DNA of 64,000 nt, taken from an uncultured Candidatus Saccharibacteria bacterium (lineage in GTDB: Bacteria > Patescibacteriota > Minisyncoccia > JACPXH01). The DNA lies in the NCBI GenBank assembly GCA_964409225.1, contig CAYPCM010000001.1, positions 32,173 to 96,172 of the forward strand, given 5' to 3'. Below the pieces are notes generated by a model. That model saw only the letters and a program-made list of their open reading frames with translations, had not been told where the DNA came from and made no database searches. Below are positions 3,430-61,160 of the stretch, piece by piece (position 1 is the stretch's first letter; every line of letters begins with the position of its first letter). Position numbers and translations under genes: made by a program.

Positions 3430-4449
3430 ATGGAGCATACTTCTGAATTGCGTCGCGATCTTGTTTCTGGCGATTGGGTGGTCGTAGCCACTGGTCGTGC
3501 CAAGCGCCCGGGCGCTTTTAAGCATTTCGAACCGGAAAAGCCCGCCCCTAAAGAAGGGTGTCCTTTTGAAGATCCCAAGGGTGAGGTCCTATTGGCGTAC
3601 GACGTCGAGGGCAGGGTATTGGGTGAACACAACCGCAGCGATTGGTTTGTGCAGTCGGTGGCAAACAAGTTCCCGGCTTTCGGCACCGGACGCTGCGATG
3701 AAACCCACGAGGTGGGCCCCTACGTTGTTTTAGACGGCGTCGGCGCCCATGAGGTGGTGATTACGCGCGATCACGAGCGCCATTGGGGTCATTTCACCAA
3801 GCCCGAAGCAGGCGCGGTTATGAAGGCCTATCACGCGCGCTACGTGCATCTACTTGAAGCAGCGTGCGTGCGTTATGTTTCCATCTTCCATAATCACGGC
3901 AGTACTGCCGGCGCTTCGGTTTGGCATCCGCATTCTCAAATTATCGCCATCCCCGTGATTCCGCCCGACGTGGGGCGCAGCTTGGACGGTTCGCGCCGGT
4001 ATTGGTCTGAAAACAAGATTTGCGTTCATTGCGCCATGATGGCGTGGGAAGTCGAAGACAAACAAAGGATTGTTTTTGAAAACGAACACGCGATCGCCTT
4101 TTGTCCGTTTGTGTCCAGAACAGCCTTTGAGGTTAGGATTTTCCCGAAACGCCACGAACCATTCTTCGAGCGTTCTTCCGACGTTGAACTTGCCGATACG
4201 GCCGCGGCAGTCCTTGGGGCCCTAAGCCGCATTGCCGAAAAACTCAATGAACCGGCGTACAACTTTTTCGTGCATACAGCGCCCTCCACTGCCGCGGCCG
4301 ACTACGCGCACTATCACTGGCACATCGAAATTCTCCCGAAGACCCAAATTTGGGCCGGGTTTGAGCTGGGTACGGGGATAGAAATTTCTACGATTTCGCC
4401 AGAGGTTGCGGCGGCTTACCTGCGCGGCGAAGTTGCGGACGAGGCATGA
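3430..4449 (+). CDS. galT: Galactose-1-phosphate uridylyltransferase (HIT family)
   Basis: HIT-like HxHxQ motif (WHPHSQII), CPFC/zinc site (EGCPFE), duplicated half-barrel length ~340 aa. Confidence 0.7.
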   Translation: MEHTSELRRDLVSGDWVVVATGRAKRPGAFKHFEPEKPAPKEGCPFEDPKGEVLLAYDVEGRVLGEHNRSDWFVQSVANKFPAFGTGRCDETHEVGPYVVLDGVGAHEVVITRDHERHWGHFTKPEAGAVMKAYHARYVHLLEAACVRYVSIFHNHGSTAGASVWHPHSQIIAIPVIPPDVGRSLDGSRRYWSENKICVHCAMMAWEVEDKQRIVFENEHAIAFCPFVSRTAFEVRIFPKRHEPFFERSSDVELADTAAAVLGALSRIAEKLNEPAYNFFVHTAPSTAAADYAHYHWHIEILPKTQIWAGFELGTGIEISTISPEVAAAYLRGEVADEA

Positions 4450-34054: not shown

Positions 34055-34963
34055 CAAGTGGATTGGATAGTCGCGCTCATTGAAATTTCAGTGGGTGAGG
34101 AAAGTCCGAACACCCCAGCCGATGCGCGGCATCGGAAATTCGAAGCTCGAATTTCGAATTTCGAAACAAATTCAAAATTCCAAATACAAATGTTCCAAAC
34201 GTTTGGAATTTGGGATATTGGGTATTGTGATTTGTTTCGAATTTCGAATTTCGGATTTCGTGCTTCCGCTGCTGCGCAGCGGCTGGAAGTAGGCAGTCGC
34301 TAACGGCGACCGGGAGCAGCTTGTTTCATCGGCGCGGTTCACGAATTGTTGCACGTAGCGCATTCGTGACTATGTGCGACATTGACTGCGTTTAAGGATA
34401 CGAGCGAAGCCCAGGGAAAGTGCCACAGAGACATATACCGCCTGCCGATGCTTCGCATCGGGAAACTCGAAATTCGAATTTCGAAACAAATTCAAAATTC
34501 CAAATACCAATGTTCCAAACGTTTGGAATTTGGGATATTGGGTATTGTGATTTGTTTCGGATTTCGTGCTTCGGATTTGGGATTTCCGCTGCGAAGCAGC
34601 GGTTGGTAAGGGTGAAAAGAGTGGGTTCGCCTTCGTTCCGCTTTCGCGGAACTTCGGCGGAATAAACCCGCCTTCATGCGCCAGCGCGCCGGAAGGTGTG
34701 GTGAACGTAAGAGCCCACAGTTCTCGCAGGTGACTGTGAGAAGAGGAAAACCCTGCCTGGTGCAAGGTCAGCGTTTCCTCGGCAGATTTCGTCTGCCGCG
34801 GGATTCGAAAAGTTAGACCGCTAGAGGCCGCGAGCAATCGCGGTCCCAGATAGATGGCTATCAGGGCGTGCGGCCTGTAAACCCCTCCCCAGTTTGCAAA
34901 ACAAACTGGGGAGGGGGAGGAAGGGCCGCACTCCTTACAGAATTCGGCTTATAGATCCACTTG
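34055..34963 (+). ncRNA. rnpB: RNase P RNA (bacterial type A core) carrying two ~165-nt inserted palindromic modules
   Basis: P1 pairing CAAGTGGAT/ATCCACTTG; P4 strands GAGGAAAGTCCGAAC and ACAGAATTCGGCTTATAG; conserved GGGAAAGTGCCACAGAGA, GGTAAGGGTGAAAAG, AACGTAAGAGCCCACAG, GGTGCAAGGTCAG, CCAGATAGATGGCTATCAGGG blocks matching E. coli M1 RNA; ~909 nt vs ~380 expected. Confidence 0.75.
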
Positions 34964-52567: not shown

Positions 52568-53485
52568 ATGCCGATTGTAGAAACATTAAAACGCGTTGCC
52601 CGTTCGGGGCTGCAGTCGTTTCTGCGCAACGGCTGGCTTTCGACCGCGACCATAAGCGTCATGGCCCTCGCCATTTTCGTGATGACGAGTTTGGTGCTGC
52701 TCAACGTCATCACCCAATCGCTCGTCGCCAACCTTCAGGATCGCATTGATATCAGCGTGTATTTCAAGCAGGAAGCGCCTGACGGCGAAATAGCCAAGGT
52801 TCAGCGCGATCTTGAGCAGCTGACCGAAGTTAAATCGGTTGAATTCGTAACTGCCGACGAGGCCCTCGTGCGTTTCCGAGAGCGCCATCAGGACAACCCT
52901 CTGCTTCTTGAATCGCTGGAAGAATTGGGCACCAATCCTCTGCAAGCAACGCTCAACATCAAAGCGCGCGAAGCGAACCAATTCGCTTCGATTGCGAGTT
53001 TTCTTCAAGCCGAAAGGTTTCAGCCCGTCATTGATAAGGTCAACTACACCCAGAATGCCGAGGTGATAAGCCGGCTCGCCAGCATTGTTTCGGGCGTGCG
53101 GCGGGGCGGAGCCGCGCTTACGCTGGTGCTGGCCACGATTGCCATTTTGGTTTCGTTCAATACCATTCGACTCGCTATCTATACTGCGCGCGAAGAGGTT
53201 GGTGTGATGCGGCTGGTGGGCGCTTCCAACTGGTTCATCCGCGGTCCCTTTCTGGTGGCTGGCTTTGTGTATGGCGTGGCGGCAGCGGCGATCTCCATGG
53301 CCGTGTTTTTTCCGCTTGTGGGAGCTATCTCGCCGAAAGTATCCGGCTTTCTTCTCACCGGCACCAACTTGTTCGCTTACGTGCAACAGAACTTCTGGCC
53401 GCTTTTGGGCTTGGGGCTCGCGGTCGGCGTGGCGCTCGGCGTGCTTTCGAGCTACATCGCGATCCGGAGGTATTTGAAGGTGTAG
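52568..53485 (+). CDS. ftsX: Cell division permease-like protein FtsX
   Basis: TM1, large periplasmic loop, three C-terminal TM; adjacent to ftsE. Confidence 0.8.
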   Translation: MPIVETLKRVARSGLQSFLRNGWLSTATISVMALAIFVMTSLVLLNVITQSLVANLQDRIDISVYFKQEAPDGEIAKVQRDLEQLTEVKSVEFVTADEALVRFRERHQDNPLLLESLEELGTNPLQATLNIKAREANQFASIASFLQAERFQPVIDKVNYTQNAEVISRLASIVSGVRRGGAALTLVLATIAILVSFNTIRLAIYTAREEVGVMRLVGASNWFIRGPFLVAGFVYGVAAAAISMAVFFPLVGAISPKVSGFLLTGTNLFAYVQQNFWPLLGLGLAVGVALGVLSSYIAIRRYLKV

Positions 53486-53504
53486 GTTGTATATCCTGAG
53501 TTTA

Positions 53505-53545
53505 TCGCGGGCCGCGCCCGCCGTCCGGCGGGCGCGGCCCGCACT
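53505..53545 (+). terminator. GC-rich hairpin downstream of ftsX (no T-tract)
   Basis: GGGCCGCGCCCGCC-gtcc-GGCGGGCGCGGCCC. Confidence 0.35.
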
Positions 53546-53598
53546 ATTCGTCGTGGTGGTGCGGTGTGGATAATCCTCGTTGAACAATTGTACAGTGA

Positions 53599-54513
53599 GT
53601 GTATGATGGAAGTATGGCGAATAATGTGCAGTGTAAGGTATGCGGGCAATCGTTCGGCGCCGTTACGAACACTCACTTGGCGACGCACGACATCTCAGTT
53701 TCCGACTATCGGCGTCGCTACCCCGGTACGGCCGTCGGGTTTGCCTTGGTGCCGGCGCAGCTTGCGAAAGGCGATCTACGGTATCGCCGATGGCGCCGTT
53801 CGTTGCTGAAGCGGCCGCCACCTTGGAACAGAGGTCAGACAAAAGCGACGCACCCGGGTGTTGCAAGAATATCGGCTACGTTTCGGGAACGAGGCATTGA
53901 TAACTTTGTTCATTGGCGACAAAAGATGGAGGCACGGGGGCGGTTTCATCATAGCTATCCAGATTTTCCACATACAGGAGATTTGGCCGAACTGATCGGT
54001 CTTGTTCTCGGCGACGGGCACATCTGTCGATTCGCGCGCACGGAGAGTCTCGGCATAACGCTTAATAATAAGTATCAAGCCCTGATCGAACGAACCGCAA
54101 AGCTGATACAGCGCGTTTTCCATAAAAAGCCGGCTCGACTAGTGCGCCGCGATGCAAACTGTACGAGGCTGGTGCTGTATCAGAAAGACATCAGCCGCCG
54201 TTTGGGCATTCCGAATGGTAATCGAAGCCAGGCCGATAATGGTATACCGCAGTGGGTATGGCGCCACAAGCCGTTTTTGATTCGCTGCTTGCGGGGACTC
54301 TACGAAGCCGAGGGGTTTTTCTCGCAACATCTACCGACCTATACATATAAATTTTCTTTCACCAACTCAAACCCGCGCTTGCTCAACGACGTTTTCCGCG
54401 GTATAAGTACACTTGGCTTTGCGCCGCATCGGGAAGCCAGGCGCATCACAATTTCGAAGCGGGCACAGGCGTTTGCGTGTCGTACCCTCCTTCGTTTTCG
54501 CGAATACAACTAA
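53599..54513 (+). CDS. Free-standing LAGLIDADG homing-endonuclease-like protein with N-terminal C2H2 zinc finger
   Basis: CKVCGQSFGAVTNTHLATH (C-x2-C-x12-H-x3-H); LAGLIDADG motif 1 LAELIGLVLGDGH and motif 2 LRGLYEAEGFF. Confidence 0.65.
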   Translation: MYDGSMANNVQCKVCGQSFGAVTNTHLATHDISVSDYRRRYPGTAVGFALVPAQLAKGDLRYRRWRRSLLKRPPPWNRGQTKATHPGVARISATFRERGIDNFVHWRQKMEARGRFHHSYPDFPHTGDLAELIGLVLGDGHICRFARTESLGITLNNKYQALIERTAKLIQRVFHKKPARLVRRDANCTRLVLYQKDISRRLGIPNGNRSQADNGIPQWVWRHKPFLIRCLRGLYEAEGFFSQHLPTYTYKFSFTNSNPRLLNDVFRGISTLGFAPHREARRITISKRAQAFACRTLLRFREYN

Positions 54514-54518
54514 TCAAT

Positions 54519-54592
54519 TGGGAGGTCTGCTAATGGTAGGCATCATGGCTCTGAACCATGCAATGGAGGTTCGACTCCTCCCCTCCCAGCCA
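54519..54592 (+). tRNA. tRNA-Gln (anticodon CTG), CCA encoded
   Basis: Acceptor TGGGAGG/CCTCCCA (U1:A72 typical of tRNA-Gln), D-arm TGCT…GGCA, anticodon stem CATGG/CCATG loop CTCTGAA, T-arm GGAGG-TTCGACT-CCTCC, GCCA tail. Confidence 0.8.
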
Positions 54593-54657
54593 ATTTGTAA
54601 AGTTTGCGTTTTCCGCCTCGCTCGGGGCTTCGCTTGATGATTTAATGAAATAAAATT

Positions 54658-55662
54658 ATGGGAACAAAGCAATCATTATATAAAGCACACAAGATTAAGG
54701 ACGATGAGTTCTTTACTCTTTACGAGGATGTTGCTAACGAAGTTTCGCTTTATAAGAAACAACTGAAAAGGAAAAGAATTATATGTCCCTGCGATTGGGA
54801 TGAAAGTTATAACGAAGAGATTGTTTTCAAGGAAGAAGGATTTATTGGTCCGTCCAATTTATTGGACAAAGGCGGAACAATTAAAAAAATAGATATAAAA
54901 GCGTCTAAGAAAAAAATTGAAAAACCGCTAGCTTTGATTAAGTGTAATTTTGTTAAATTTTTAGTTGCTCATGCTGATGCTTATGGCATAAAGTCAATTT
55001 CTGTGAGCGGATATAATCCTGCAAACGGTAAAGGTGTTAAATTCCAAGATGTTGATTATTCAAAATATGATCTAGTTATTACGAATCCGCCGTTTAGTCA
55101 GTTTCGGGATTTCATTGAAACAATGTTTAAAAATAAGACGGATTTTTTGGTCGTCGGACCAATTACTGCCATAACATACAAGGAAATTTTCAGTCACATA
55201 AAAGACAATAAAATGTGGCTTGGTTACGCAAAACAATTATCCGGATTTCGATTGACTGATGGTACTCTTGTTCTTTCAAAAAATCCCGAAGGATCAGTGC
55301 CTCGTGCTTGTAAATGGTACACGAATTTGGATGTTGCCTATCGGCACGACAGGATGATTTTGACAGAAAACTATAGCCCCGAAAAATACCCAAAATATTA
55401 CAACTATAACGGCGTGGATGTAGAAAAAACAAATAAAATACCTTTTGATTTCGATGGTATTATGGGTGTTCCAGTTACTTTTTTAACAAAGTATAATCCA
55501 CAGCAGTTTAAGATTGTAGGAAAAGGGGTTCAGGTTGAAAAAACAGTAAGGTTCAAGGGTGATAAGGCTACGCTCTGGATTGAAAAGGACGGAAAACCTT
55601 TCAGGGCACCTTTTGAAAGAATTTTAATAAAAAATAGAGAGGTAATTAAAAATGAAAAATAA
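54658..55662 (+). CDS. Adenine-specific DNA methyltransferase, M.EcoRI-like family
   Basis: DDEFFTLYEDV…CPCDWDES, DLVITNPPF, ITYKEIFSHIKDNKMWLGY, CKWYTNLDV, YPKYYNYNGVDVEKTNKIPFDFDGIMGVPVTFLTKYNPQQF — collinear with my recollection of M.EcoRI; ~33% GC. Confidence 0.6.
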   Translation: MGTKQSLYKAHKIKDDEFFTLYEDVANEVSLYKKQLKRKRIICPCDWDESYNEEIVFKEEGFIGPSNLLDKGGTIKKIDIKASKKKIEKPLALIKCNFVKFLVAHADAYGIKSISVSGYNPANGKGVKFQDVDYSKYDLVITNPPFSQFRDFIETMFKNKTDFLVVGPITAITYKEIFSHIKDNKMWLGYAKQLSGFRLTDGTLVLSKNPEGSVPRACKWYTNLDVAYRHDRMILTENYSPEKYPKYYNYNGVDVEKTNKIPFDFDGIMGVPVTFLTKYNPQQFKIVGKGVQVEKTVRFKGDKATLWIEKDGKPFRAPFERILIKNREVIKNEK

Positions 55663-56737
55663 TATGAATATCAAAACTTTATACGAACAACTTAGGGATG
55701 GGAAAATTATCAGCGACATAGAACTCCAAAGAGAGATAGTTTATGATACCGAAAAACAAATGCTAGTTATAGACAGTATCGTTAATGGGATTCCGTTGCC
55801 TGCTTTTTATTTTTGGAAAAATGACGAAGGAATTTTGGAAGTATTGGACGGCAAACAAAGAATAGAAGCCATTAAAAAATTTATTGAAAACGACATCCAA
55901 TATCAGGATAAGTTATGGAAACAAACGGACAAAAAAATTCAAGACATAATCAATAATGCCGAGCTTTCAATCATTGTTTGTGGAGGTAAAGAACAATTAA
56001 AAAGGGAGATATTTAGAAGAATTAATACTCTGGGTGTTCCACTTTCTCCTTATGAAGTTTTGAACGGCCTTTTTCATGGCGAGTATTTAAGGGGTTTAAC
56101 TGTTTATGTCGGGCAAGATAGGGATGCACTGAAAGTTCTAAACGCCAACAGCCGAGGTAAAAATCAATATAGAATTTTGCAATTATTGATGGAATTGAAA
56201 AATTTGCCGAAAGATGCGCAGAGTATAAACGACCATGTGAATTCAAATCAGAAAAAATCTTTTGCTGATGACCAAAGGGAGGTTGGTAAATATATCAAAT
56301 TCGTCAGAGACATATTTGATGATTACGGCCAATTAGACATTTATTTTAACTTGGCGAGAAAATATTTTAAGGACGCGGTTATATGGAAACAAAACAAGGA
56401 CGAAATCAATTCTCGCGTCAAAAGATATTTAAAAAGCGATGACGCTAAATTGACGGATAAAGCAAAAGAAATAGAAGATATTATTCAAGCCATTGTAAAT
56501 AATATCAGTGTTGATGATAAAAGGTTATTTTCAAGCGATGACAAAAAGGAATTTTTGAGGAAAAAGAAGCCGAATAAAGAGAAAAAATATCAATGTGCGG
56601 ACTGCAAAAAGTATTTTTATGCCGAGGAATTAACAATGGATCATGTAGACCCGTGGAGTAAAGGCGGCAGAACCGAACTTTCAAACGCTGAACTACGATG
56701 CCGTCCTTGCAATATTAAAAAGGGCAATAGAAGTTAG
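55652..56737 (+). CDS. DUF262 (ParB/Srx-like, DGQQR-type) domain fused to C-terminal HNH nuclease
   Basis: N-terminal …LEVLDGKQRIEAI… (DUF262 DGQQR motif variant); C-terminal CADCKKY…MDHVDPWSKGG…N…CRPCNIKKGN HNH Cys4/His-Me finger; 11-nt overlap with upstream MTase gene. Confidence 0.6.
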   Translation: MKNNMNIKTLYEQLRDGKIISDIELQREIVYDTEKQMLVIDSIVNGIPLPAFYFWKNDEGILEVLDGKQRIEAIKKFIENDIQYQDKLWKQTDKKIQDIINNAELSIIVCGGKEQLKREIFRRINTLGVPLSPYEVLNGLFHGEYLRGLTVYVGQDRDALKVLNANSRGKNQYRILQLLMELKNLPKDAQSINDHVNSNQKKSFADDQREVGKYIKFVRDIFDDYGQLDIYFNLARKYFKDAVIWKQNKDEINSRVKRYLKSDDAKLTDKAKEIEDIIQAIVNNISVDDKRLFSSDDKKEFLRKKKPNKEKKYQCADCKKYFYAEELTMDHVDPWSKGGRTELSNAELRCRPCNIKKGNRS

Positions 56738-56740
56738 ATT

Positions 56741-57877
56741 ATGAATTCTAAAATTATTATCAAGGCCAATTTACCTTTTTGTTTATATAGATTAGATGAA
56801 AGATATTTTCAAATTGACCCTCAAACACGCATCCGTTTTTTAAAAGAAAAAATAGAGCCAAGCAGAAGGACAAGCTCATCAAAAAATGTTGAGTTTTTAA
56901 ATGATAGATGGGGCTGGGATGGTTTTTCTAAAGTAGAAATTGAAACAGAAAAAGAAATTGATTTAGAAAATTCAACATCGGAAAAAGCACAAAAATTTGC
57001 TATAAAAATCATTAACGAGTTCATCAATCTTTATAGATATTTTGATGAAAATGCTGTCCACTTTGTTAAACTTATAGAATCTGATTTATTAGAATTTTCT
57101 GTGGAGAAAAATGGTCATGGGATGTTTGCGATGCCGTTGCACATGACAGTTTTAGACCCTAAGAAAATTTCAGCAGTAAGTAGTAGCATAGAGAGGGCGT
57201 TAAGTGATGAATACAAAATCCCCTTATGGAGAGAACTTATACTTAATGCCGAACATTACTGTTATATCGGAGATTTTAGAATGGCAATTTTGGAAAGCGT
57301 GACTGCATTGGAATTAGTAATTTCTAGATTTATAAGTGGTGAGTTATCAGCGGCCGGTGTTCAAGAAAAAGAAATTAAAGAGTTTATTAAGGAAACTGGC
57401 GTAGCAAAGGGGCTTAATGTTGTGATTCGGCTTTTAGTAGGAAAAAGTGGAATACCGAATGAATTATTTGAAAAATGCAAAGGTACTATAACTAAACGAA
57501 ACAAGATAGTTCATGAGGGAAGAAAAGAAATAGATTATCAAAGCACTAAAGATTCCATTATCGCCATATATCAGCTTATTCAGCTTTTATTGGAAAAGGG
57601 TCGAGATATGGATGAATTAAGAGATAATTATAGACAAATTATGAAATTTGAAGAATACTTAAAAACTGTTGTACCGAAGATTGGTCCAAATGCCGCTTTT
57701 GACCTTTCAAGAGATGCACGCACAACGGCAATCGAAAACATCTTGGTGGATAAAAAAGTAGCAACAAAAGAAGAAATTGAAACTGCAGTTGAAAACGAGT
57801 TATCAAAAAGCGCCGAGAATATTTTGCGTATGCCACCCTTGCCAAAGGATGAACCTAAGGAAGCTCCGCAAAAATGA
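56741..57877 (+). CDS. Alpha-helical protein with HEPN-like Rx4H motif (putative abortive-infection/RNase component)
   Basis: …TITKRNKIVHEGRKE… (R-x4-H) in predicted helical context; 3 nt after upstream stop; AT-rich like the other two genes. Confidence 0.3.
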   Translation: MNSKIIIKANLPFCLYRLDERYFQIDPQTRIRFLKEKIEPSRRTSSSKNVEFLNDRWGWDGFSKVEIETEKEIDLENSTSEKAQKFAIKIINEFINLYRYFDENAVHFVKLIESDLLEFSVEKNGHGMFAMPLHMTVLDPKKISAVSSSIERALSDEYKIPLWRELILNAEHYCYIGDFRMAILESVTALELVISRFISGELSAAGVQEKEIKEFIKETGVAKGLNVVIRLLVGKSGIPNELFEKCKGTITKRNKIVHEGRKEIDYQSTKDSIIAIYQLIQLLLEKGRDMDELRDNYRQIMKFEEYLKTVVPKIGPNAAFDLSRDARTTAIENILVDKKVATKEEIETAVENELSKSAENILRMPPLPKDEPKEAPQK

Positions 57878-57977
57878 CCTAATGCGGCGCGCCAGCTTCG
57901 CTGGCACGAAATTCGGCGGCGGCGGAAAAAATTGTAATCGGAAAGCGAGGGCGGGCAAAAATTCCTTCCCCCCAACC

Positions 57978-58071
57978 CCCTTCCTTTTTGCCCGCCCGAG
58001 CGAAAATTATCAGAAATCAGCGTCCGGATTTTCTCGGAAAAAAGTTCGGATTTTGTCCAAGACAGACAGCA
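57978..58071 (+). repeat. 93-bp direct repeat, family C, copy 1
   Basis: CCTTCCTTTTTGCCCGCCCGAGCGAAAATTATCAGAAATCAGCGTCCGGATTTTCTCGG…GACAGACAGCA ~80% identical to 61068..61160. Confidence 0.55.
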
Positions 58072-58265
58072 TAATTGGTTTCCGCCAAAGGCGGAAAAGA
58101 AAAAGTCGGCTCGAACCCCCTGCTCGCGGAGCGAGCGGTTTCGGTTTCGTTCAAAAAGGGCAGACAGCCAGCGAGGACAAGAGCCGAGGTGCCCTCGATT
58201 GACACGCGATGCCGAGATCTGTATCATCCAAATATATGAAAACACAATTCCATGGAGGGAGCGCC

Positions 58266-58556
58266 ATGCCGGCGGTCAAGATCGGGGTGAGCCGACAGGT
58301 GGTCATCCCCAAGAAGCTCCACGACGAACTCGGGCTCACGCCCGGGGACTACCTCGAAGTCGAGCTCGAGCGCGGCAAGCTCGTGCTCACGCCGAAAACC
58401 CTCGTTGATAAAGCGATTGAGCAGCGGCTCGCCGAGAGCTTCGAGGATTTCCGGCGGGGCCGCACCCACGGGCCGTTCCCTTCAGCCAAGGAGGCGATCC
58501 GCTTCTTGCATACTGAGGTGAAGCGAAGAAGGGGAAAGAAGTCTAAAGCGGCGTAA
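58266..58556 (+). CDS. AbrB/MazE/SpoVT-family antitoxin
   Basis: MPAVKIGVSRQVVIPKKLHDELGLTPGDYLEVELERGKLVLTP swapped-hairpin motif. Confidence 0.65.
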   Translation: MPAVKIGVSRQVVIPKKLHDELGLTPGDYLEVELERGKLVLTPKTLVDKAIEQRLAESFEDFRRGRTHGPFPSAKEAIRFLHTEVKRRRGKKSKAA

Positions 58557-58801
58557 TGCGCCCCCACTTTTCCGAAGGTTTCGTCCGCAGCTACGCGAAC
58601 GCTCCCGCGCACGTGCAGCGAGCTTTCGATCGGAAACTGACCTTCCTGCTTCAGAATCTCCATCATCCCTCGCTTCGCGCGAAGAAGTACGATGAAACCC
58701 GCGGCATTTGGCAGGCGCGGGTGAGTCGCAACTGGCGGTTCTATTTCACGATCGAGGGCGACGCTTGCCACCTCCATGAGATCATGGCGCACCCGAAGTA
58801 G
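58556..58801 (+). CDS. RelE/ParE-superfamily toxin
   Basis: TAATG overlap with antitoxin; C-terminal …GIWQARVSRNWRFYFTIEGDACHLHEIMAHPK. Confidence 0.5.
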   Translation: MRPHFSEGFVRSYANAPAHVQRAFDRKLTFLLQNLHHPSLRAKKYDETRGIWQARVSRNWRFYFTIEGDACHLHEIMAHPK

Positions 58802-58827
58802 GGCCCGACGACTTCAAGGGACAACAA

Positions 58828-59232
58828 ATGTTTCAAATCAAAACAATAGAAGACATCCCAATTGCGTATGTGGCGAAACAAGGCCACCCTGCTGTTGTTG
58901 CGGGCAGGGCATTTTGGGAATTGGAGCAACGCGTACCGCTCAAGGGAAATAAGTTTTACGGAGTTTTTGACGAGCGCACGAACGAATACCGGGCCTGCGT
59001 GGCGCTAAGCGAAGCGAATCAGGATTCAGCCCAAGGTCTAAATCGCGGAGTTATCCAAGGCGGAGCGTATGCGTATACCACTATCGTGGGGGATTATCGG
59101 GACATCGTTCGTCAGGTTGGCCCCGCGTTCGACGAGCTTGCCCGAAGTTACCGGCGAGATCCCGCGAGGCCGTGTGTTGAGTTTTATAAACGCCACACGG
59201 AAGTTCTTGTGATGCTTCCGGTACAACAATAG
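58828..59232 (+). CDS. GyrI-like small-molecule-binding domain protein
   Basis: ~134 aa, pattern of SbmC/GyrI-like effector-binding fold (…GAYAYTTIVGDYRDI…). Confidence 0.45.
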   Translation: MFQIKTIEDIPIAYVAKQGHPAVVAGRAFWELEQRVPLKGNKFYGVFDERTNEYRACVALSEANQDSAQGLNRGVIQGGAYAYTTIVGDYRDIVRQVGPAFDELARSYRRDPARPCVEFYKRHTEVLVMLPVQQ

Positions 59233-59245
59233 TTGATTTTACCCA

Positions 59246-59719
59246 ATGGCCAAAGACAGAAATAAAGCCGTGCCGGCGGTCTACCTGCTTCTGAGAAAAG
59301 GGGAGGATATTTTGCTTATGCGGCGACAGGGTTCTGGCTATTATGACGGTTGGTACTCGGTGCCCGCAGGACATGTTGAAGCCGGAGAGTTGCCACTTGG
59401 TGGGTTGATACGAGAAGCTGGCGAGGAACTCGGCATAGCCGTTGATCCCAAAGACGCCAAACTGGTGCATACGATGTACCGAACCAAGCACGACGAGACC
59501 GGCGATAGGGTGGATATGTTTTTTGTCGTGAGCAAATGGTCGGGAGAAATTACGAACGTGGAACCGCACAAATGCGGCGATATCCGTTGGTTTCCCGTCA
59601 AGGAACTGCCGGAAAATGTGATGCATCATGTTCGAGACGCAATTAAAGATGTTGAGCTTAGCATTCAATATTCGGAGCTGGATTTGCCCCACATCACCTT
59701 GAACCCACCAAAACCGTGA
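59246..59719 (+). CDS. NUDIX hydrolase
   Basis: Nudix box GHVEAGELPLGGLIREAGEELGI. Confidence 0.75.
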   Translation: MAKDRNKAVPAVYLLLRKGEDILLMRRQGSGYYDGWYSVPAGHVEAGELPLGGLIREAGEELGIAVDPKDAKLVHTMYRTKHDETGDRVDMFFVVSKWSGEITNVEPHKCGDIRWFPVKELPENVMHHVRDAIKDVELSIQYSELDLPHITLNPPKP

Positions 59720-59773
59720 TCTGGTCGAGGTGCCTTGGTTTGATTTAATCGATCGACACCAGTTTTCTACGTC

Positions 59774-60973
59774 ATGAAACAACAAACACAACAGCCCACC
59801 TCAGGTTTTTATGGCCTTGGCATTGCGCCGGGGCTGCTTGAGATTTTGGAGAAACTTCGCTATGCAACCCCGACCCCGATTCAGCGCCAGGCGATTCCGA
59901 TTGCGATTCAGGGCAAAGACGTGGTGGGCGTGGCGCAAACCGGAACCGGGAAAACCCTCGCATTTGGCATCCCCATGATTCAAATTCTCGCTCGAACCAA
60001 AGGGCGGGGCCTGGTATTGGTGCCCACACGAGAACTCGCGCTCCAGGTTGATGAGATGTTGCACGCGGTCGGCCGCTCTCTGGGGCTGCGGACCGCGGTC
60101 CTCATCGGCGGCGCTTCGATGAGGCCGCAGATCCAAGCGATCGAAAAGAACCCGCACATCATCGTCGCCACTCCCGGCCGGCTGATCGACCATTTGCATC
60201 AGAAGACGGTTGCGCTTGGGGGTGTGCGCATACTGGTGCTTGACGAGGCGGATCGCATGCTTGACATGGGGTTTTTGCCGCAGGTTCAGAAGATTCTCCA
60301 CGCCGTTCCCAAAGATCGCCAAACCATGTTGTTTTCGGCCACGCTTTCGTCCGAGATCATGCAGGTCGCAACGGCCAACATGAAGCTCCCGATCCGCATT
60401 GAAATCGCGCCTTCCGGCACCACGGTTGAGCGCGTAACCCAAGAGCTTTTTGTGGTCAAGCGTGACGCGAAGAATCGGTTGCTTGAGATTGTGTTGGCCG
60501 AGCACGCGGGGTCGGCGCTTGTGTTCACCCGCACAAAATACGGCGCCAAACGCATTACCAAGGCAGTGCGCGCCATGGGGCATAGCGCTGCCGAAATCCA
60601 CTCAAATCGCTCGCTCGGGCAGCGCCGCGATGCACTGGATGGGTTCAAGTCCGGCAAATATCGGGTGCTGGTTGCCACCGACATCGCGGCTCGCGGGATT
60701 GACGTCGTCGGGATCGAGCTCGTGTTGAATTACGATCTGCCGGCGCATTCCGAAGATTACGTGCACCGGATCGGCCGCACGGCCCGAGCAGGAGCCGAGG
60801 GGCATGCGATATCATTCGTGCTGCCCGAAGAGCAGCGCGAGGTGCGCAACATCGAGCGGCTCATCAGGAAGAGTCTGCGCGTCTCGCCCCTCCCGAAGCT
60901 GCCGCCGGAGCGAATGCCGGAACAGACACCGCGTCATCGACCTGGAACGCGGCCGTTTCATCGGCGGCGTTGA
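59774..60973 (+). CDS. DEAD-box ATP-dependent RNA helicase
   Basis: Q-motif, AQTGTGKT, PTRELA, DEAD, SAT, HRIGRTARAG motifs. Confidence 0.9.
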   Translation: MKQQTQQPTSGFYGLGIAPGLLEILEKLRYATPTPIQRQAIPIAIQGKDVVGVAQTGTGKTLAFGIPMIQILARTKGRGLVLVPTRELALQVDEMLHAVGRSLGLRTAVLIGGASMRPQIQAIEKNPHIIVATPGRLIDHLHQKTVALGGVRILVLDEADRMLDMGFLPQVQKILHAVPKDRQTMLFSATLSSEIMQVATANMKLPIRIEIAPSGTTVERVTQELFVVKRDAKNRLLEIVLAEHAGSALVFTRTKYGAKRITKAVRAMGHSAAEIHSNRSLGQRRDALDGFKSGKYRVLVATDIAARGIDVVGIELVLNYDLPAHSEDYVHRIGRTARAGAEGHAISFVLPEEQREVRNIERLIRKSLRVSPLPKLPPERMPEQTPRHRPGTRPFHRRR

Positions 60974-61067
60974 GCTGCGTGGACGTATCTTCGCCGCACA
61001 GATCCATCATGAAAGCCTTCCTTGAGCACATCCCATTGAATGTATCGGATCCGAAAATCTCTTTCCC

Positions 61068-61160
61068 CTTCCCTTTTGCCCGCACGAGTGTAGTTTTTCA
61101 GAAATCAGCATCAGGATTTTCTCGGGGAAAAAGTTAGGATTTTGTTCAGGACAGACAGCA
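61068..61160 (+). repeat. 93-bp direct repeat, family C, copy 2
   Basis: CCTTCCCTTTTGCCCGCACGAGTGTAGTTTTTCAGAAATCAGCATCAGGATTTTCTCGG…GACAGACAGCA. Confidence 0.55.

What the first reader, a model, noticed from the sequence alone, without database searches (positions are those of the whole stretch)
54519..57877. AT-rich three-gene operon at tRNA-Gln: M.EcoRI-like methylase + DUF262–HNH nuclease + HEPN-like protein (candidate composite defence island)
Three tightly coupled genes (11-nt overlap, then a 3-nt gap) have ~33% GC inside a ~60% GC chromosome. They begin 66 nt after the 3' end of tRNA-Gln(CTG) and end where GC-rich sequence resumes at 57878. Gene 1 is collinear with M.EcoRI (TNPPF, GIMGVPVTFL). 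Gene 2 fuses a DUF262/ParB-like NTPase domain (DGKQR) to a canonical Cys4 HNH. Gene 3 carries an Rx4H HEPN-type motif. The pairing is not a classical EcoRI-type RM system, where the REase is a PD-(D/E)XK enzyme. DUF262–HNH fusions are usually GmrSD/BrxU-like type IV enzymes, so a methylase partnered with a DUF262–HNH and a HEPN protein suggests an undescribed RM/abortive-infection hybrid. No integrase or att duplication is visible.
Basis: partly seen in the sequence, partly recalled or inferred. Interest (0 to 1): 0.85.

Follow-up and report, generated by a model that had tools for sequence, protein, structure and literature searches.

The report
Restriction-modification pair plus separate HEPN gene
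The AT-rich island next to tRNA-Gln is real, but it is two independent mobile modules joined together (a widespread methylase plus DUF262-HNH nuclease restriction pair, and a rare HEPN toxin-like gene), not a new three-part defence system.

Summary
tRNA-Gln(CTG) lies at 54519-54592, followed by three intact, tightly packed + strand genes at 34% GC in a 57% GC background. There is no integrase and no att repeat.

Genes 1 and 2 (EcoRI-family adenine methylase and DUF262-HNH nuclease) form a self-contained two-gene module. In 79 of 79 genomes from many bacterial lineages, and on Enterococcus and Moraxella plasmids, the nuclease sits directly after such a methylase. None of those 79 loci has gene 3. 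PADLOC's type II restriction-enzyme model matches gene 2 over its full length.

Gene 3 is a separate module. DNA homology breaks exactly at its start and stop codons. Its close relatives lie beside three unrelated type II restriction-modification (RM) systems. It has a HEPN fold with an invariant RNxxxH motif, but matches no Pfam or PADLOC family. Its last 78 residues are encoded, in more distant relatives, as a small gene that overlaps the start of the HEPN gene. That is a toxin-antitoxin-like layout, fused into one protein here.

HEPN genes next to RM systems were described in 2013. The result is a new variant of a known theme and of moderate interest.

The parts
54519..54592 (+). tRNA-Gln(CTG); left landmark of the island
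   Evidence: ARAGORN; Rfam tRNA, 56.4 bits. A tRNA-Gln(TTG) also lies upstream of the same RM module in L093 and L012.
54593..54657 (+). Leader between the tRNA and gene 1. The first ~40 nt resemble the post-tRNA sequence of L093. Island homology to other loci starts at ~54639-54648.
   Evidence: Sequence comparison. blastn breakpoints 54639/54641/54642/54648 in L012, L014, L015, L018, L090, L093. No + strand sigma-70-like site was found in this spacer.
54658..55662 (+). Gene 1: EcoRI-family N6-adenine DNA methyltransferase (M subunit)
   Evidence: Pfam EcoRI_methylase 1.8e-64, 218.7 bits against a cut-off of 26.4. PADLOC MTase_II 5e-60. NPPF motif in the translation. Found immediately upstream of a gene 2 homologue in 79/79 loci.
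55652..56737 (+). Gene 2: DUF262 (ParB-like NTPase) + Cys4 HNH nuclease; predicted R subunit
   Evidence: Pfam GmrSD_N 1.6e-15 and HNH 1.9e-11. PADLOC REase_II PDLC03418 3.3e-23 over residues 24-360 of the protein and 37-372 of 372 model positions. Invariant across 15 sequences at 64-94% identity to gene 2: QR...Y, DGKQR, FRRIN, C315, C318, D330, H331, N345, C350, C353, N354. 637 homologues.
56741..57877 (+). Gene 3: three-domain HEPN protein, a separate mobile module
   Evidence: Only 22 clusters among 5.8 billion proteins. DNA homology to L001, L005, L091 and L092 is limited to 56738/56750-57852. Absent from all 79 gene 2 loci.
56741..57145 (+). Gene 3 N-terminal beta-rich domain (residues 1-135); function unknown
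57158..57610 (+). Gene 3 HEPN domain (residues ~140-290). The RNKIVH motif is at 57497-57514.
57641..57877 (+). Gene 3 C-terminal helical domain (residues 301-378, begins MKFEEYLK). In other lineages it is encoded as a separate small gene.
   Evidence: tblastn finds it as a 73-84 aa ORF immediately upstream of the N+HEPN gene in L095-L101, L103-L106 and L116. 22 stand-alone clusters at 55-77% identity. It overlaps the downstream 289-293 aa gene by 8-29 nt in L136-L143.
57881..57927 (+). Conserved ~45-nt right-end motif: GCGGCGC, a hairpin, then ACGAAATTCGGCGGC
   Evidence: Found directly after the last AT-rich gene in the window, L076, L015, L090 and L011, although the third gene differs. The hairpin stem covaries in L090: GCCAGC/GCTGGC becomes TTTTTGC/GCAAAAA.
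57949..58071 (.). GC-rich hairpin (57949-57997) plus a repeated intergenic element (57977-58071); probably a host repeat, not island cargo
   Evidence: Perfect 13-nt inverted repeat. A second copy lies at 61065-61160, 85% identical. Related copies occur in L090 and L092, where 248-nt inverted repeats at 93.5% identity flank the RM+gene 3 island.

Best explanation
The island is a mosaic of two independently mobile defence modules. They lie head to tail next to tRNA-Gln in a high-GC genome that is probably CPR/Patescibacteria, and they were acquired from low-GC donors.

Module A (genes 1-2) is a type II-like restriction-modification pair. The EcoRI-family N6-adenine methylase, translated first, protects host DNA. 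The DUF262-HNH protein is the nuclease: it cuts unmethylated DNA with its Cys4 HNH site. Its ParB-like DUF262 domain has all three NTPase motifs intact and probably binds or hydrolyses NTP to gate or position cleavage.

Module B (gene 3) is a single-chain descendant of a two-gene, toxin-antitoxin-like pair. It combines an N-terminal domain of unknown function (a possible sensor), a HEPN RNase domain with an RNxxxH active site, and a C-terminal ~75-aa helical domain. In relatives that C-terminal domain is a separate small protein encoded just upstream. It most likely holds the RNase inactive until a trigger releases it, which would stop growth as an abortive-infection or second-line response.

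In this window gene 3 is probably co-transcribed with the RM genes, but it does not need them.

Shown: module boundaries, synteny statistics, domain and fold assignments, and the split/fused architecture.
Inferred: enzymatic activities, NTP dependence, autoinhibition by the C-domain, and the abortive-infection role.
For: Module independence.
- A gene 1 homologue lies directly upstream of gene 2 in 79/79 genome loci spanning CPR, Clostridia, Bacteroidales, Spirochaetes, Actinomycetota, Planctomycetes, Fibrobacter, Pelagibacteraceae and Mycoplasma. Gene 3 is absent from all of them.
- The same pairing holds at ~29% identity on Enterococcus and Moraxella plasmids.
- The ORF downstream of gene 2 is variable: 58 singletons among 71. 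In close CPR relatives that position holds a SocA/Panacea TA pair, an SDH protease, a trypsin-like protease, an alpha/beta-hydrolase or unknown proteins.
- DNA homology breakpoints fall at 54640/56738 for genes 1-2 and at 56738-57852 for gene 3.

RM function.
- Pfam and PADLOC MTase hits; full-length PADLOC REase_II hit.
- Catalytic and NTPase motifs invariant.

Gene 3.
- Close relatives (71-80% aa) sit beside Endonuclease_7, MvaI/BcnI-like and TaqI-like RM systems.
- HEPN fold and invariant RNxxxH.
- Wider family members hit HEPN_AbiU2 (6.8e-9), HEPN_RiboL-PSP, HEPN, and the Csx1/Csm6 and Cas13b HEPN models.
- The C-domain is a separate overlapping upstream gene.

Foreign origin.
- 34% against 57% GC.
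- 87-94% nucleotide identity to islands in unrelated contexts.
Against: - No biochemical data exist for any of the three proteins.
- The recognition site is unknown, and no palindrome avoidance points to one: GAATTC occurs 15 times against 15.8 expected in the host part of the window.
- I found no paper that characterises a DUF262-HNH type II enzyme, so NTP dependence is extrapolated from GmrSD, BrxU and SspE.
- Autoinhibition by the C-domain rests only on gene architecture. The AF2 confidence for that domain is modest (pLDDT 44-73) and no coordinates were available to inspect contacts.
- Every fused gene 3 with a readable context is next to an RM system (8 loci, 4 RM types). Among the split forms whose neighbours were annotated, only L103/L105 has a DNA methyltransferase next door. 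This hints at a functional tie to RM that the 'independent module' reading underplays.
- The left junction of the window is not independently assembled.
Confidence: 0.6

Rival explanations
1. PrrC-style guard. The fused gene 3 is functionally coupled to whichever RM system it sits beside. Its HEPN RNase would stay silent while restriction works and fire when a phage disables it or DNA damage accumulates. The three genes would then act as one layered system, although the RM pair can also exist alone.
For: - The gap to gene 2 is 3 nt and the arrangement is the same in L090 and L093.
- All 8 fused-form loci with readable flanks are RM-adjacent, across 4 RM types.
- Split forms mostly lie among housekeeping genes.
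- Anantharaman et al. 2013 proposed exactly this for RM-linked HEPN clades (PMC3710099).
- HEC-08, a HEPN protein embedded in Hma systems, defends against phage (bioRxiv 10.1101/2024.01.29.577857).
Against: - The partner RM enzymes are unrelated: DUF262-HNH, TaqI-like, MvaI/BcnI-like and EndoVII nucleases, with an EcoRI-family or a LexA-S24-N6_N4 methylase. A specific protein-protein contact like PrrC-EcoprrI is therefore unlikely.
- In three of the four contexts gene 3 is transcribed divergently from its own intergenic region.
- Gene 3 lacks the ABC-ATPase regulatory domain of PrrC.
Confidence: 0.2
2. One reading: one obligate, previously undescribed three-component RM/abortive-infection hybrid in which methylase, DUF262-HNH and HEPN protein need each other.
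For: Tight gene spacing and uniform GC. The three-gene block recurs at 87% nucleotide identity in L090 and L093.
Against: - 79/79 gene 1-2 loci lack gene 3.
- Gene 3 relatives occur without genes 1-2 in more than 30 loci.
- Homology breakpoints fall exactly at the gene borders.
- The position after gene 2 is variable.
Confidence: 0.07
3. Gene 2 is a modification-dependent (type IV, GmrSD/BrxU-like) nuclease, and gene 1 is an unrelated or orphan methylase that merely sits beside it.
For: - The DUF262 domain and its NTPase motifs are shared with GmrSD, BrxU and SspE.
- There are PADLOC NsnA and PD-T4-2_A hits on the N-terminal half.
Against: - Strict adjacency in the same order, often with overlap, in 79/79 loci and down to 29% identity is the signature of a cognate M-R pair.
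- There is no DUF1524 domain. The nuclease is a canonical PF01844 HNH, and the protein is about 360 aa, against a 587-aa BrxU chain (7p9k).
- The match to BrxU is E=0.71 over 34 residues.
- The PADLOC type II REase model matches the full length.
Confidence: 0.05
4. Gene 3 is not a toxin. It would be a non-catalytic HEPN-fold regulator or nucleotide-binding protein, like MtlR, or an anti-defence or accessory gene carried by the mobile element.
For: - There is no direct evidence of toxicity.
Against: - R and N of the RNxxxH motif are invariant, and H is conserved in at least 90%, across 54 members that are 19-40% identical to gene 3.
- An overlapping small upstream gene is typical of toxin-antitoxin pairs.
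- Neighbours are often other defence or TA genes: Fic/DOC motif-bearing proteins (recognised by eye from the HPFxxGNGR motif, not confirmed by Pfam), further HEPN paralogues, a methylase.
Confidence: 0.08

Closest known systems
Type II RM systems with HNH (beta-beta-alpha-Me) nucleases, e.g. KpnI, Hpy99I, PacI (from my own knowledge), and the REBASE-derived PADLOC model REase_II PDLC03418
   Same: A methylase plus an HNH nuclease encoded side by side. The PADLOC type II REase model matches gene 2 end to end at 3.3e-23.
   Different: Gene 2 carries an N-terminal DUF262/ParB-like NTPase domain with intact motifs, which classical type II enzymes lack. The nuclease is more conserved than its methylase in 66 of 73 loci. 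No characterised member or recognition site is known to me.
EcoRI restriction-modification system
   Same: Gene 1 is a clear member of the Pfam EcoRI_methylase family (1.8e-64).
   Different: The partner nuclease is DUF262-HNH, not the PD-(D/E)XK R.EcoRI. There is no evidence for GAATTC specificity: no avoidance in the host sequence.
GmrSD / BrxU / SspE (type IV, DUF262 + DUF1524)
   Same: An N-terminal DUF262 with a DGxQR NTPase motif, followed by a His-Me finger nuclease (PMC4619093).
   Different: - These enzymes are modification-dependent and act alone, without a cognate methylase.
- They use DUF1524, not PF01844 HNH, and are larger (the BrxU chain 7p9k is 587 aa).
- Gene 2 is always paired with a methylase and barely matches BrxU (E=0.71).
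RM-linked HEPN proteins (PrrC-EcoprrI; the 16 or more RM-associated HEPN clades of Anantharaman et al. [quoted passage not shown]
   Same: A HEPN Rx4-6H protein encoded beside RM genes, proposed or shown to act as an RNA-level second line of defence (PMC3710099; bioRxiv 10.1101/2024.01.29.577857).
   Different: - Gene 3 matches none of the Pfam HEPN families at threshold.
- It lacks PrrC's ABC ATPase.
- Its N- and C-terminal domains match no Pfam family.
- It partners with four unrelated RM types rather than one.
HEPN toxin-antitoxin pairs (HEPN-MNT, e.g. SO_3166/SO_3165) and fused toxin-antitoxin defence proteins such as CapRel SJ46 (the latter from my own knowledge)
   Same: Relatives of gene 3 form a bicistron of a small gene overlapping a HEPN gene. 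In gene 3 the two parts are one polypeptide, like a fused toxin-antitoxin. The HEPN toxins 5yep and 7ae2 are among the structural matches.
   Different: The small partner is a ~75-aa helical protein, not an MNT nucleotidyltransferase. It has no Pfam match. Neutralisation has not been tested.
Pfam HEPN_RiboL-PSP (PF18735) and HEPN_AbiU2 (PF18734)
   Same: These are the nearest sequence families. 9 of 16 diverse members give HEPN_RiboL-PSP hits (best 1.6e-4), and one wider member hits AbiU2 at 6.8e-9.
   Different: Gene 3 itself scores 14.5 bits against a cut-off of 28.4. There is no L-PSP fusion, and the flanking domains differ.

Membership tests
Type II restriction-modification system (M + R gene pair) | A DNA methyltransferase with a catalytic (D/N/S)PP(Y/F) motif | tested here: met
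   NPPF is in the gene 1 translation. Pfam EcoRI_methylase 218.7 bits against a 26.4 cut-off; PADLOC MTase_II 5e-60.
Type II restriction-modification system (M + R gene pair) | A cognate endonuclease gene conserved next to the methylase | tested here: met
   79/79 genome loci, same order and strand. Plasmid examples at ~29% identity. Full-length PADLOC REase_II hit. HNH catalytic residues invariant.
Type II restriction-modification system (M + R gene pair) | Sequence-specific cleavage that is blocked by the cognate methylation | not testable with these tools
   Needs a methylome and in vitro cleavage. Word statistics gave no candidate site.
EcoRI RM system proper | A PD-(D/E)XK R.EcoRI-like nuclease partner and GAATTC specificity | tested here: not met
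   The partner is DUF262+HNH. GAATTC is not avoided: 15 observed against 15.8 expected.
GmrSD/BrxU type IV enzymes | DUF262 fused to a DUF1524 nuclease, acting without a cognate methylase | tested here: not met
   No DUF1524 hit; the nuclease is PF01844 HNH. It is always preceded by a methylase. BrxU match E=0.71.
DUF262/ParB-like NTPase domain | Motifs I (QRxxxW), II (DGxQR) and III (FxxxN) | tested here: met
   QREIVY, DGKQR and FRRIN are invariant in alignment A2. Motif definitions come from PMC12065111. NTP hydrolysis itself was not tested.
HEPN superfamily | An Rx4-6H motif conserved across the family | tested here: met
   R253 and N254 are invariant and H258 is at least 90% conserved in 54 diverse members. 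All three are invariant in A1, and R and H are invariant in A3.
HEPN superfamily | The alpha-helical HEPN fold | tested here: met
HEPN superfamily | Metal-independent RNase activity | not testable with these tools
   Requires biochemistry.
Any existing Pfam or PADLOC HEPN family (RiboL-PSP, Apea, AbiU2, MAE_28990, Swt1 and others) | A score above the family's gathering threshold | tested here: not met
   Gene 3 has no hit at E<=0.1 as a full-length protein. As an isolated domain it scores 14.5-15.1 bits against cut-offs of 24.4-28.4.
HEPN-MNT toxin-antitoxin | An adjacent minimal nucleotidyltransferase antitoxin | tested here: not met
   The partner is a ~75-aa helical protein or domain with no Pfam match.
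Type II toxin-antitoxin-like bicistron (generic) | A small gene overlapping or abutting a larger toxin gene, conserved as a pair | tested here: met
   For relatives, not for the fused gene 3 itself: 11 metagenome loci and 4 of 4 look-ups with 8-29 nt overlaps. Neutralisation was not tested.
PrrC/RloC anticodon nucleases | An N-terminal ABC-ATPase regulatory domain fused to HEPN | tested here: not met
   No ATPase domain. The N-domain is a small beta-rich fold.
tRNA-integrating genomic island | An integrase gene and a duplicated tRNA 3' end (att) at the far border | tested here: not met
   No integrase among the ORFs or Pfam hits. No direct repeat of the tRNA end. tRNA-Gln adjacency does recur in L093 and L012.

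The most novel reading that the evidence does not exclude
Gene 3 could represent an undescribed family of single-chain toxin-antitoxin HEPN RNases. In this reading the toxin and its formerly separate small partner were fused, and the fused form is specifically recruited next to type II RM systems as a generic sensor of restriction failure. Separately, the DUF262-HNH nuclease could define an NTP-gated class of methylation-sensitive restriction enzyme that is mechanistically distinct from classical type II enzymes. That would explain why it is more conserved than its methylase.
Probability: 0.2. Interest if true: 0.7.

Novelty: new variant of a known kind. Interest (0 to 1): 0.42.

Why it matters
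- It corrects a tempting over-reading. Tight spacing and uniform GC do not make an operon a single system. Breakpoint and synteny analysis show two modules.
- It flags a very widespread but, as far as I could find, uncharacterised RM family: an EcoRI-family methylase with a DUF262-HNH nuclease. The DUF262 domain is otherwise known from modification-dependent enzymes; here it is paired with a protective methylase. That makes the role of NTP binding in self/non-self discrimination directly testable.
- It identifies a rare HEPN family, absent from Pfam and PADLOC, that exists in split (two-gene) and fused (one-gene) forms. This is a natural experiment for how toxin-antitoxin pairs become single-chain defence proteins.
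- It shows that the position downstream of a conserved RM core is a variable slot holding different defence-like cargo, closed by a conserved 45-nt motif.

Tried and rejected
- Sequence searches of gene 3 and its family profiles against PDB found nothing useful. Only fold comparison worked.
- Recognition-site inference from palindrome under-representation in the host part of the window and in the island gave no signal.
- The empty-site test failed. Exact look-ups of flanking proteins returned only the same MAG contig or ~1-2 kb Logan contigs that break at the GC-rich repeat. Full-length gene 1 is not on record, and a gene 2 look-up gave only the NCBI contig.
- Rfam found no RNA other than the tRNA in 53000-60000, and none in five related loci.
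- The region downstream of gene 3 looked at first like an island-specific terminal repeat. A second copy at 61065-61160 shows that part of it is a host intergenic repeat.
- No inverted or direct repeat links the left leader to the right flank; the best match is 10 nt.
- There are no gene 3 relatives and no right-end motif in IMG/VR viral contigs, and no gene 3 relatives on PLSDB plasmids.
- Literature searches found no paper on a DUF262-HNH nuclease paired with an EcoRI-family methylase.
- The PADLOC NsnA (Menshen) hit is to the DUF262 domain only, and no NsnB or NsnC is present, so Menshen was rejected.

Full report
**Observation**

ARAGORN and Rfam place tRNA-Gln(ctg) at 54519-54592. Three + strand ORFs follow: 54658-55662 (334 aa), 55652-56737 (361 aa) and 56741-57877 (378 aa). 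They show the stated 11-nt overlap and 3-nt gap.

The island is 34.1% GC and the rest of the window is 56.6%. The drop is sharp at both ends. No direct repeat of the tRNA end and no integrase are present. All quoted motifs are in the translations.

One caveat applies. The tRNA/gene 1 junction has no independent assembly support. Two NCBI MAG contigs (JACPLK010000008.1 and JACPMK010000001.1) both end at the same point inside gene 1. The full-length gene 1 product is not on record. The right junction is reproduced in L007 and in three Logan assemblies. In addition, an independent metagenome contig (L093) has a tRNA-Gln, a homologous ~40-nt leader and the same three genes.

**Genes 1 and 2 are a restriction-modification pair**

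Gene 1 is a clear EcoRI-family adenine methylase: Pfam 1.8e-64 and PADLOC MTase_II 5e-60.

Gene 2 has DUF262/GmrSD_N (1.6e-15) and HNH (1.9e-11) domains. PADLOC's type II restriction-enzyme model PDLC03418 matches it from residue 24 to 360, across model positions 37-372 of 372 (3.3e-23).

Gene 2 has 637 homologues and is strikingly conserved. The best 120 listed are all at least 63% identical, and in the genome scan identity stays at 39-69% in phyla as distant as Spirochaetes, Bacteroidales and Mycoplasma. The DUF262 NTPase motifs (QR...Y, DGKQR, FRRIN) and the Cys4 HNH residues are invariant.

In a scan of 185,579 species genomes, 79 loci encoded a gene 2 relative. The lineages include CPR, Clostridia, Bacteroidales, Spirochaetes, Actinomycetota, Planctomycetes, Fibrobacter, Pelagibacteraceae and Mycoplasma. 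All 79 have a gene 1 homologue immediately upstream on the same strand.

The pairing persists at ~29% identity on Enterococcus and Moraxella plasmids. There NCBI annotates an 'adenine-specific methyltransferase EcoRI family protein' next to a 'DUF262 domain-containing protein'.

This is the signature of a cognate M-R pair. It is not a GmrSD/BrxU-type modification-dependent enzyme. Those enzymes use DUF1524, act alone, and match gene 2 only at E=0.71 over 34 residues.

Unusually, the nuclease is more conserved than the methylase in 66 of 73 loci. The recognition site is unknown, and GAATTC is not avoided. I found no paper that characterises this enzyme family.

**Gene 3 is not part of that module**

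None of the 79 loci has gene 3. The ORF after gene 2 is variable: 58 singletons among 71. In the closest CPR relatives that position holds one of the following:
- an HTH-SocA/Panacea antitoxin plus a small ORF;
- an SDH-type protease;
- a trypsin-like protease;
- an alpha/beta-hydrolase;
- unknown proteins.

DNA homology of the window to other loci stops at gene borders. For the gene 1-2 block it runs from ~54640 to 56738. For gene 3 it runs from 56738/56750 to 57852. All three genes occur together only in L090 and L093 (87% nucleotide identity) and in the source MAG.

A conserved ~45-nt motif (57881-57927) follows the last island gene in the window, L076, L015, L090 and L011, whatever the third gene is. 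Its hairpin stem covaries in L090. It may mark the right end of the mobile unit, but I could not establish what it does.

**What gene 3 is**

*Rarity and context.* Only 22 clusters among 5.8 billion proteins resemble the whole protein. Its close relatives (71-80% aa) lie next to three other, unrelated type II RM systems:
- HTH + Endonuclease_7 + a LexA-S24-N6_N4 methylase fusion (L001, L002, L091);
- an MvaI/BcnI-like nuclease + a LexA-S24 methylase (L005);
- HTH + a TaqI-like nuclease + a LexA-S24 methylase (L092).

*Structure.* An AF2 model (pLDDT 75) shows three parts: a beta-rich N-domain (residues 1-135), a helical domain (~140-290) and a C-terminal helical domain (~300-365).

- HEPN_RiboL-PSP in 9 of 16 members;
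- AbiU2 at 6.8e-9;
- HEPN and Hypoth_Ymh;
- the Csx1/Csm6 and Cas13b models.

At profile level the N-domain+HEPN architecture is moderately common: 1295 clusters at 50% identity with E<=1e-3. The N-domain gave no informative fold match.

**Split and fused forms**

The last 78 residues of gene 3, starting MKFEEYLK, are a separate 73-84 aa gene in relatives whose N+HEPN part is ~40-43% identical. That small gene lies immediately upstream of the N+HEPN gene in 11 metagenome loci. There are 22 stand-alone clusters at 55-77% identity.

In four of four look-ups the small gene overlaps a 289-293 aa Pfam-less gene by 8-29 nt. The neighbours there are housekeeping genes, not RM genes. Other relatives lack the small part altogether (L003, L006, L102).

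A small overlapping upstream gene plus a HEPN gene is a toxin-antitoxin-like layout. In gene 3 the two are fused, with the small part moved to the C-terminus. I infer, but have not shown, that this domain restrains the RNase.

All eight fused-form loci with readable flanks are RM-adjacent. This keeps a PrrC-like 'guard' reading alive. The diversity of partner enzymes, however, argues against a specific physical coupling.

**Comparison with what is known**

HEPN genes beside RM systems are an established theme. Anantharaman et al. listed at least 16 RM-linked HEPN clades. [quoted passage not shown] They proposed a PrrC-like second line of defence (PMC3710099). HEC-08, a HEPN protein embedded in Hma systems, was later shown to defend against phage.

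The RM pair is catalogued (PADLOC/REBASE-derived model; NCBI product names) but, to my knowledge, not characterised. The locus is therefore a new variant of known kinds:
- a known type of RM pair with an unusual NTPase-bearing nuclease;
- a new HEPN family with a split/fused architecture;
- the two joined in a foreign island at tRNA-Gln.

**Verdict**

The island is best read as two independent mobile defence modules (confidence 0.6). A looser functional coupling remains possible (0.2), and an obligate three-part system is unlikely (0.07). Interest is moderate at 0.42.

The most useful follow-ups are the methylome and NTP dependence of the DUF262-HNH enzyme, and toxicity tests of gene 3 with and without its C-domain.

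Noticed in passing
window 53599-54513 (+): A 304-aa protein with a LAGLIDADG_3 domain (7e-07) and a weak N-terminal ROS/MucR-like zinc-finger hit sits directly upstream of tRNA-Gln at host-like GC. It looks like a free-standing homing-endonuclease-like gene beside an insertion hot spot.
   Followed up: partly
window 58209-58801 (+): A MazE-like antitoxin (2e-10) and a ParE-like toxin (8.7e-05, just under the Pfam cut-off) form an overlapping pair immediately downstream of the island, at host GC. A strong sigma-70-like promoter lies at 58199-58227.
   Followed up: partly
window 57881-57927; L076 2493-2539; L015 6347-6383; L090 ~3725-3770; L011 3207-3245: A conserved ~45-nt motif follows the last AT-rich gene of islands that share genes 1-2 but differ in the third gene. 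The hairpin stem covaries in L090. It may be a terminator or a recombination site.
   Followed up: partly
window 57949-58071 and 61065-61160; L090 3868-3964; L092 1-243 and 4040-4285: A GC-rich hairpin and a ~95-nt repeated intergenic element occur in the window. In L092 the RM+gene 3 island is bracketed by 248-nt inverted repeats at 93.5% identity. Logan contigs break at this element.
   Followed up: partly
L093 52-1156; L012 3750-4962: In two other loci a tRNA-Gln(TTG) lies upstream of the same RM module. A T5orf172/MUG113 (GIY-YIG-like) gene or a Bro-N gene sits in between. tRNA-Gln adjacency therefore recurs, and a possible mobilising gene is missing from the window.
   Followed up: partly
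L001 869-2299, L005 1239-3104, L091 3-1355, L092 1293-2816: These DNA methylases are fused to a complete LexA-like module (LexA_DNA_bind + Peptidase_S24 + N6_N4_Mtase), each beside a different nuclease. The architecture suggests SOS-type or autoproteolytic control of an RM system.
   Followed up: no
L011-L089 versus window 54658-56737: The nuclease (gene 2) is more conserved than its methylase (gene 1) in 66 of 73 loci (median 55.6% against 51.2% identity). This is the reverse of what is usual for RM pairs.
   Followed up: partly
L007 and L011 (contig ends): Two MAG contigs from the same groundwater project both end at the same position inside gene 1 (query residue 181). Near-identical copies of the RM module in co-occurring genomes probably break the assemblies.
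   Followed up: no
L099 8227-9922; L114 1214-3586; L110 767-2722: Relatives of gene 3 occur as tandem HEPN paralogues (each with an RNxxxH or RSxxxH motif). One relative is a 651-aa form with a long N-terminal extension and a zinc ribbon.
   Followed up: no
window 34142-34286 and 34462-34606: Two copies (90% identical, 320 nt apart) of a ~145-nt internally palindromic repeat rich in CGAAATTCGAAATTCGA blocks. Unrelated to the finding.
   Followed up: no
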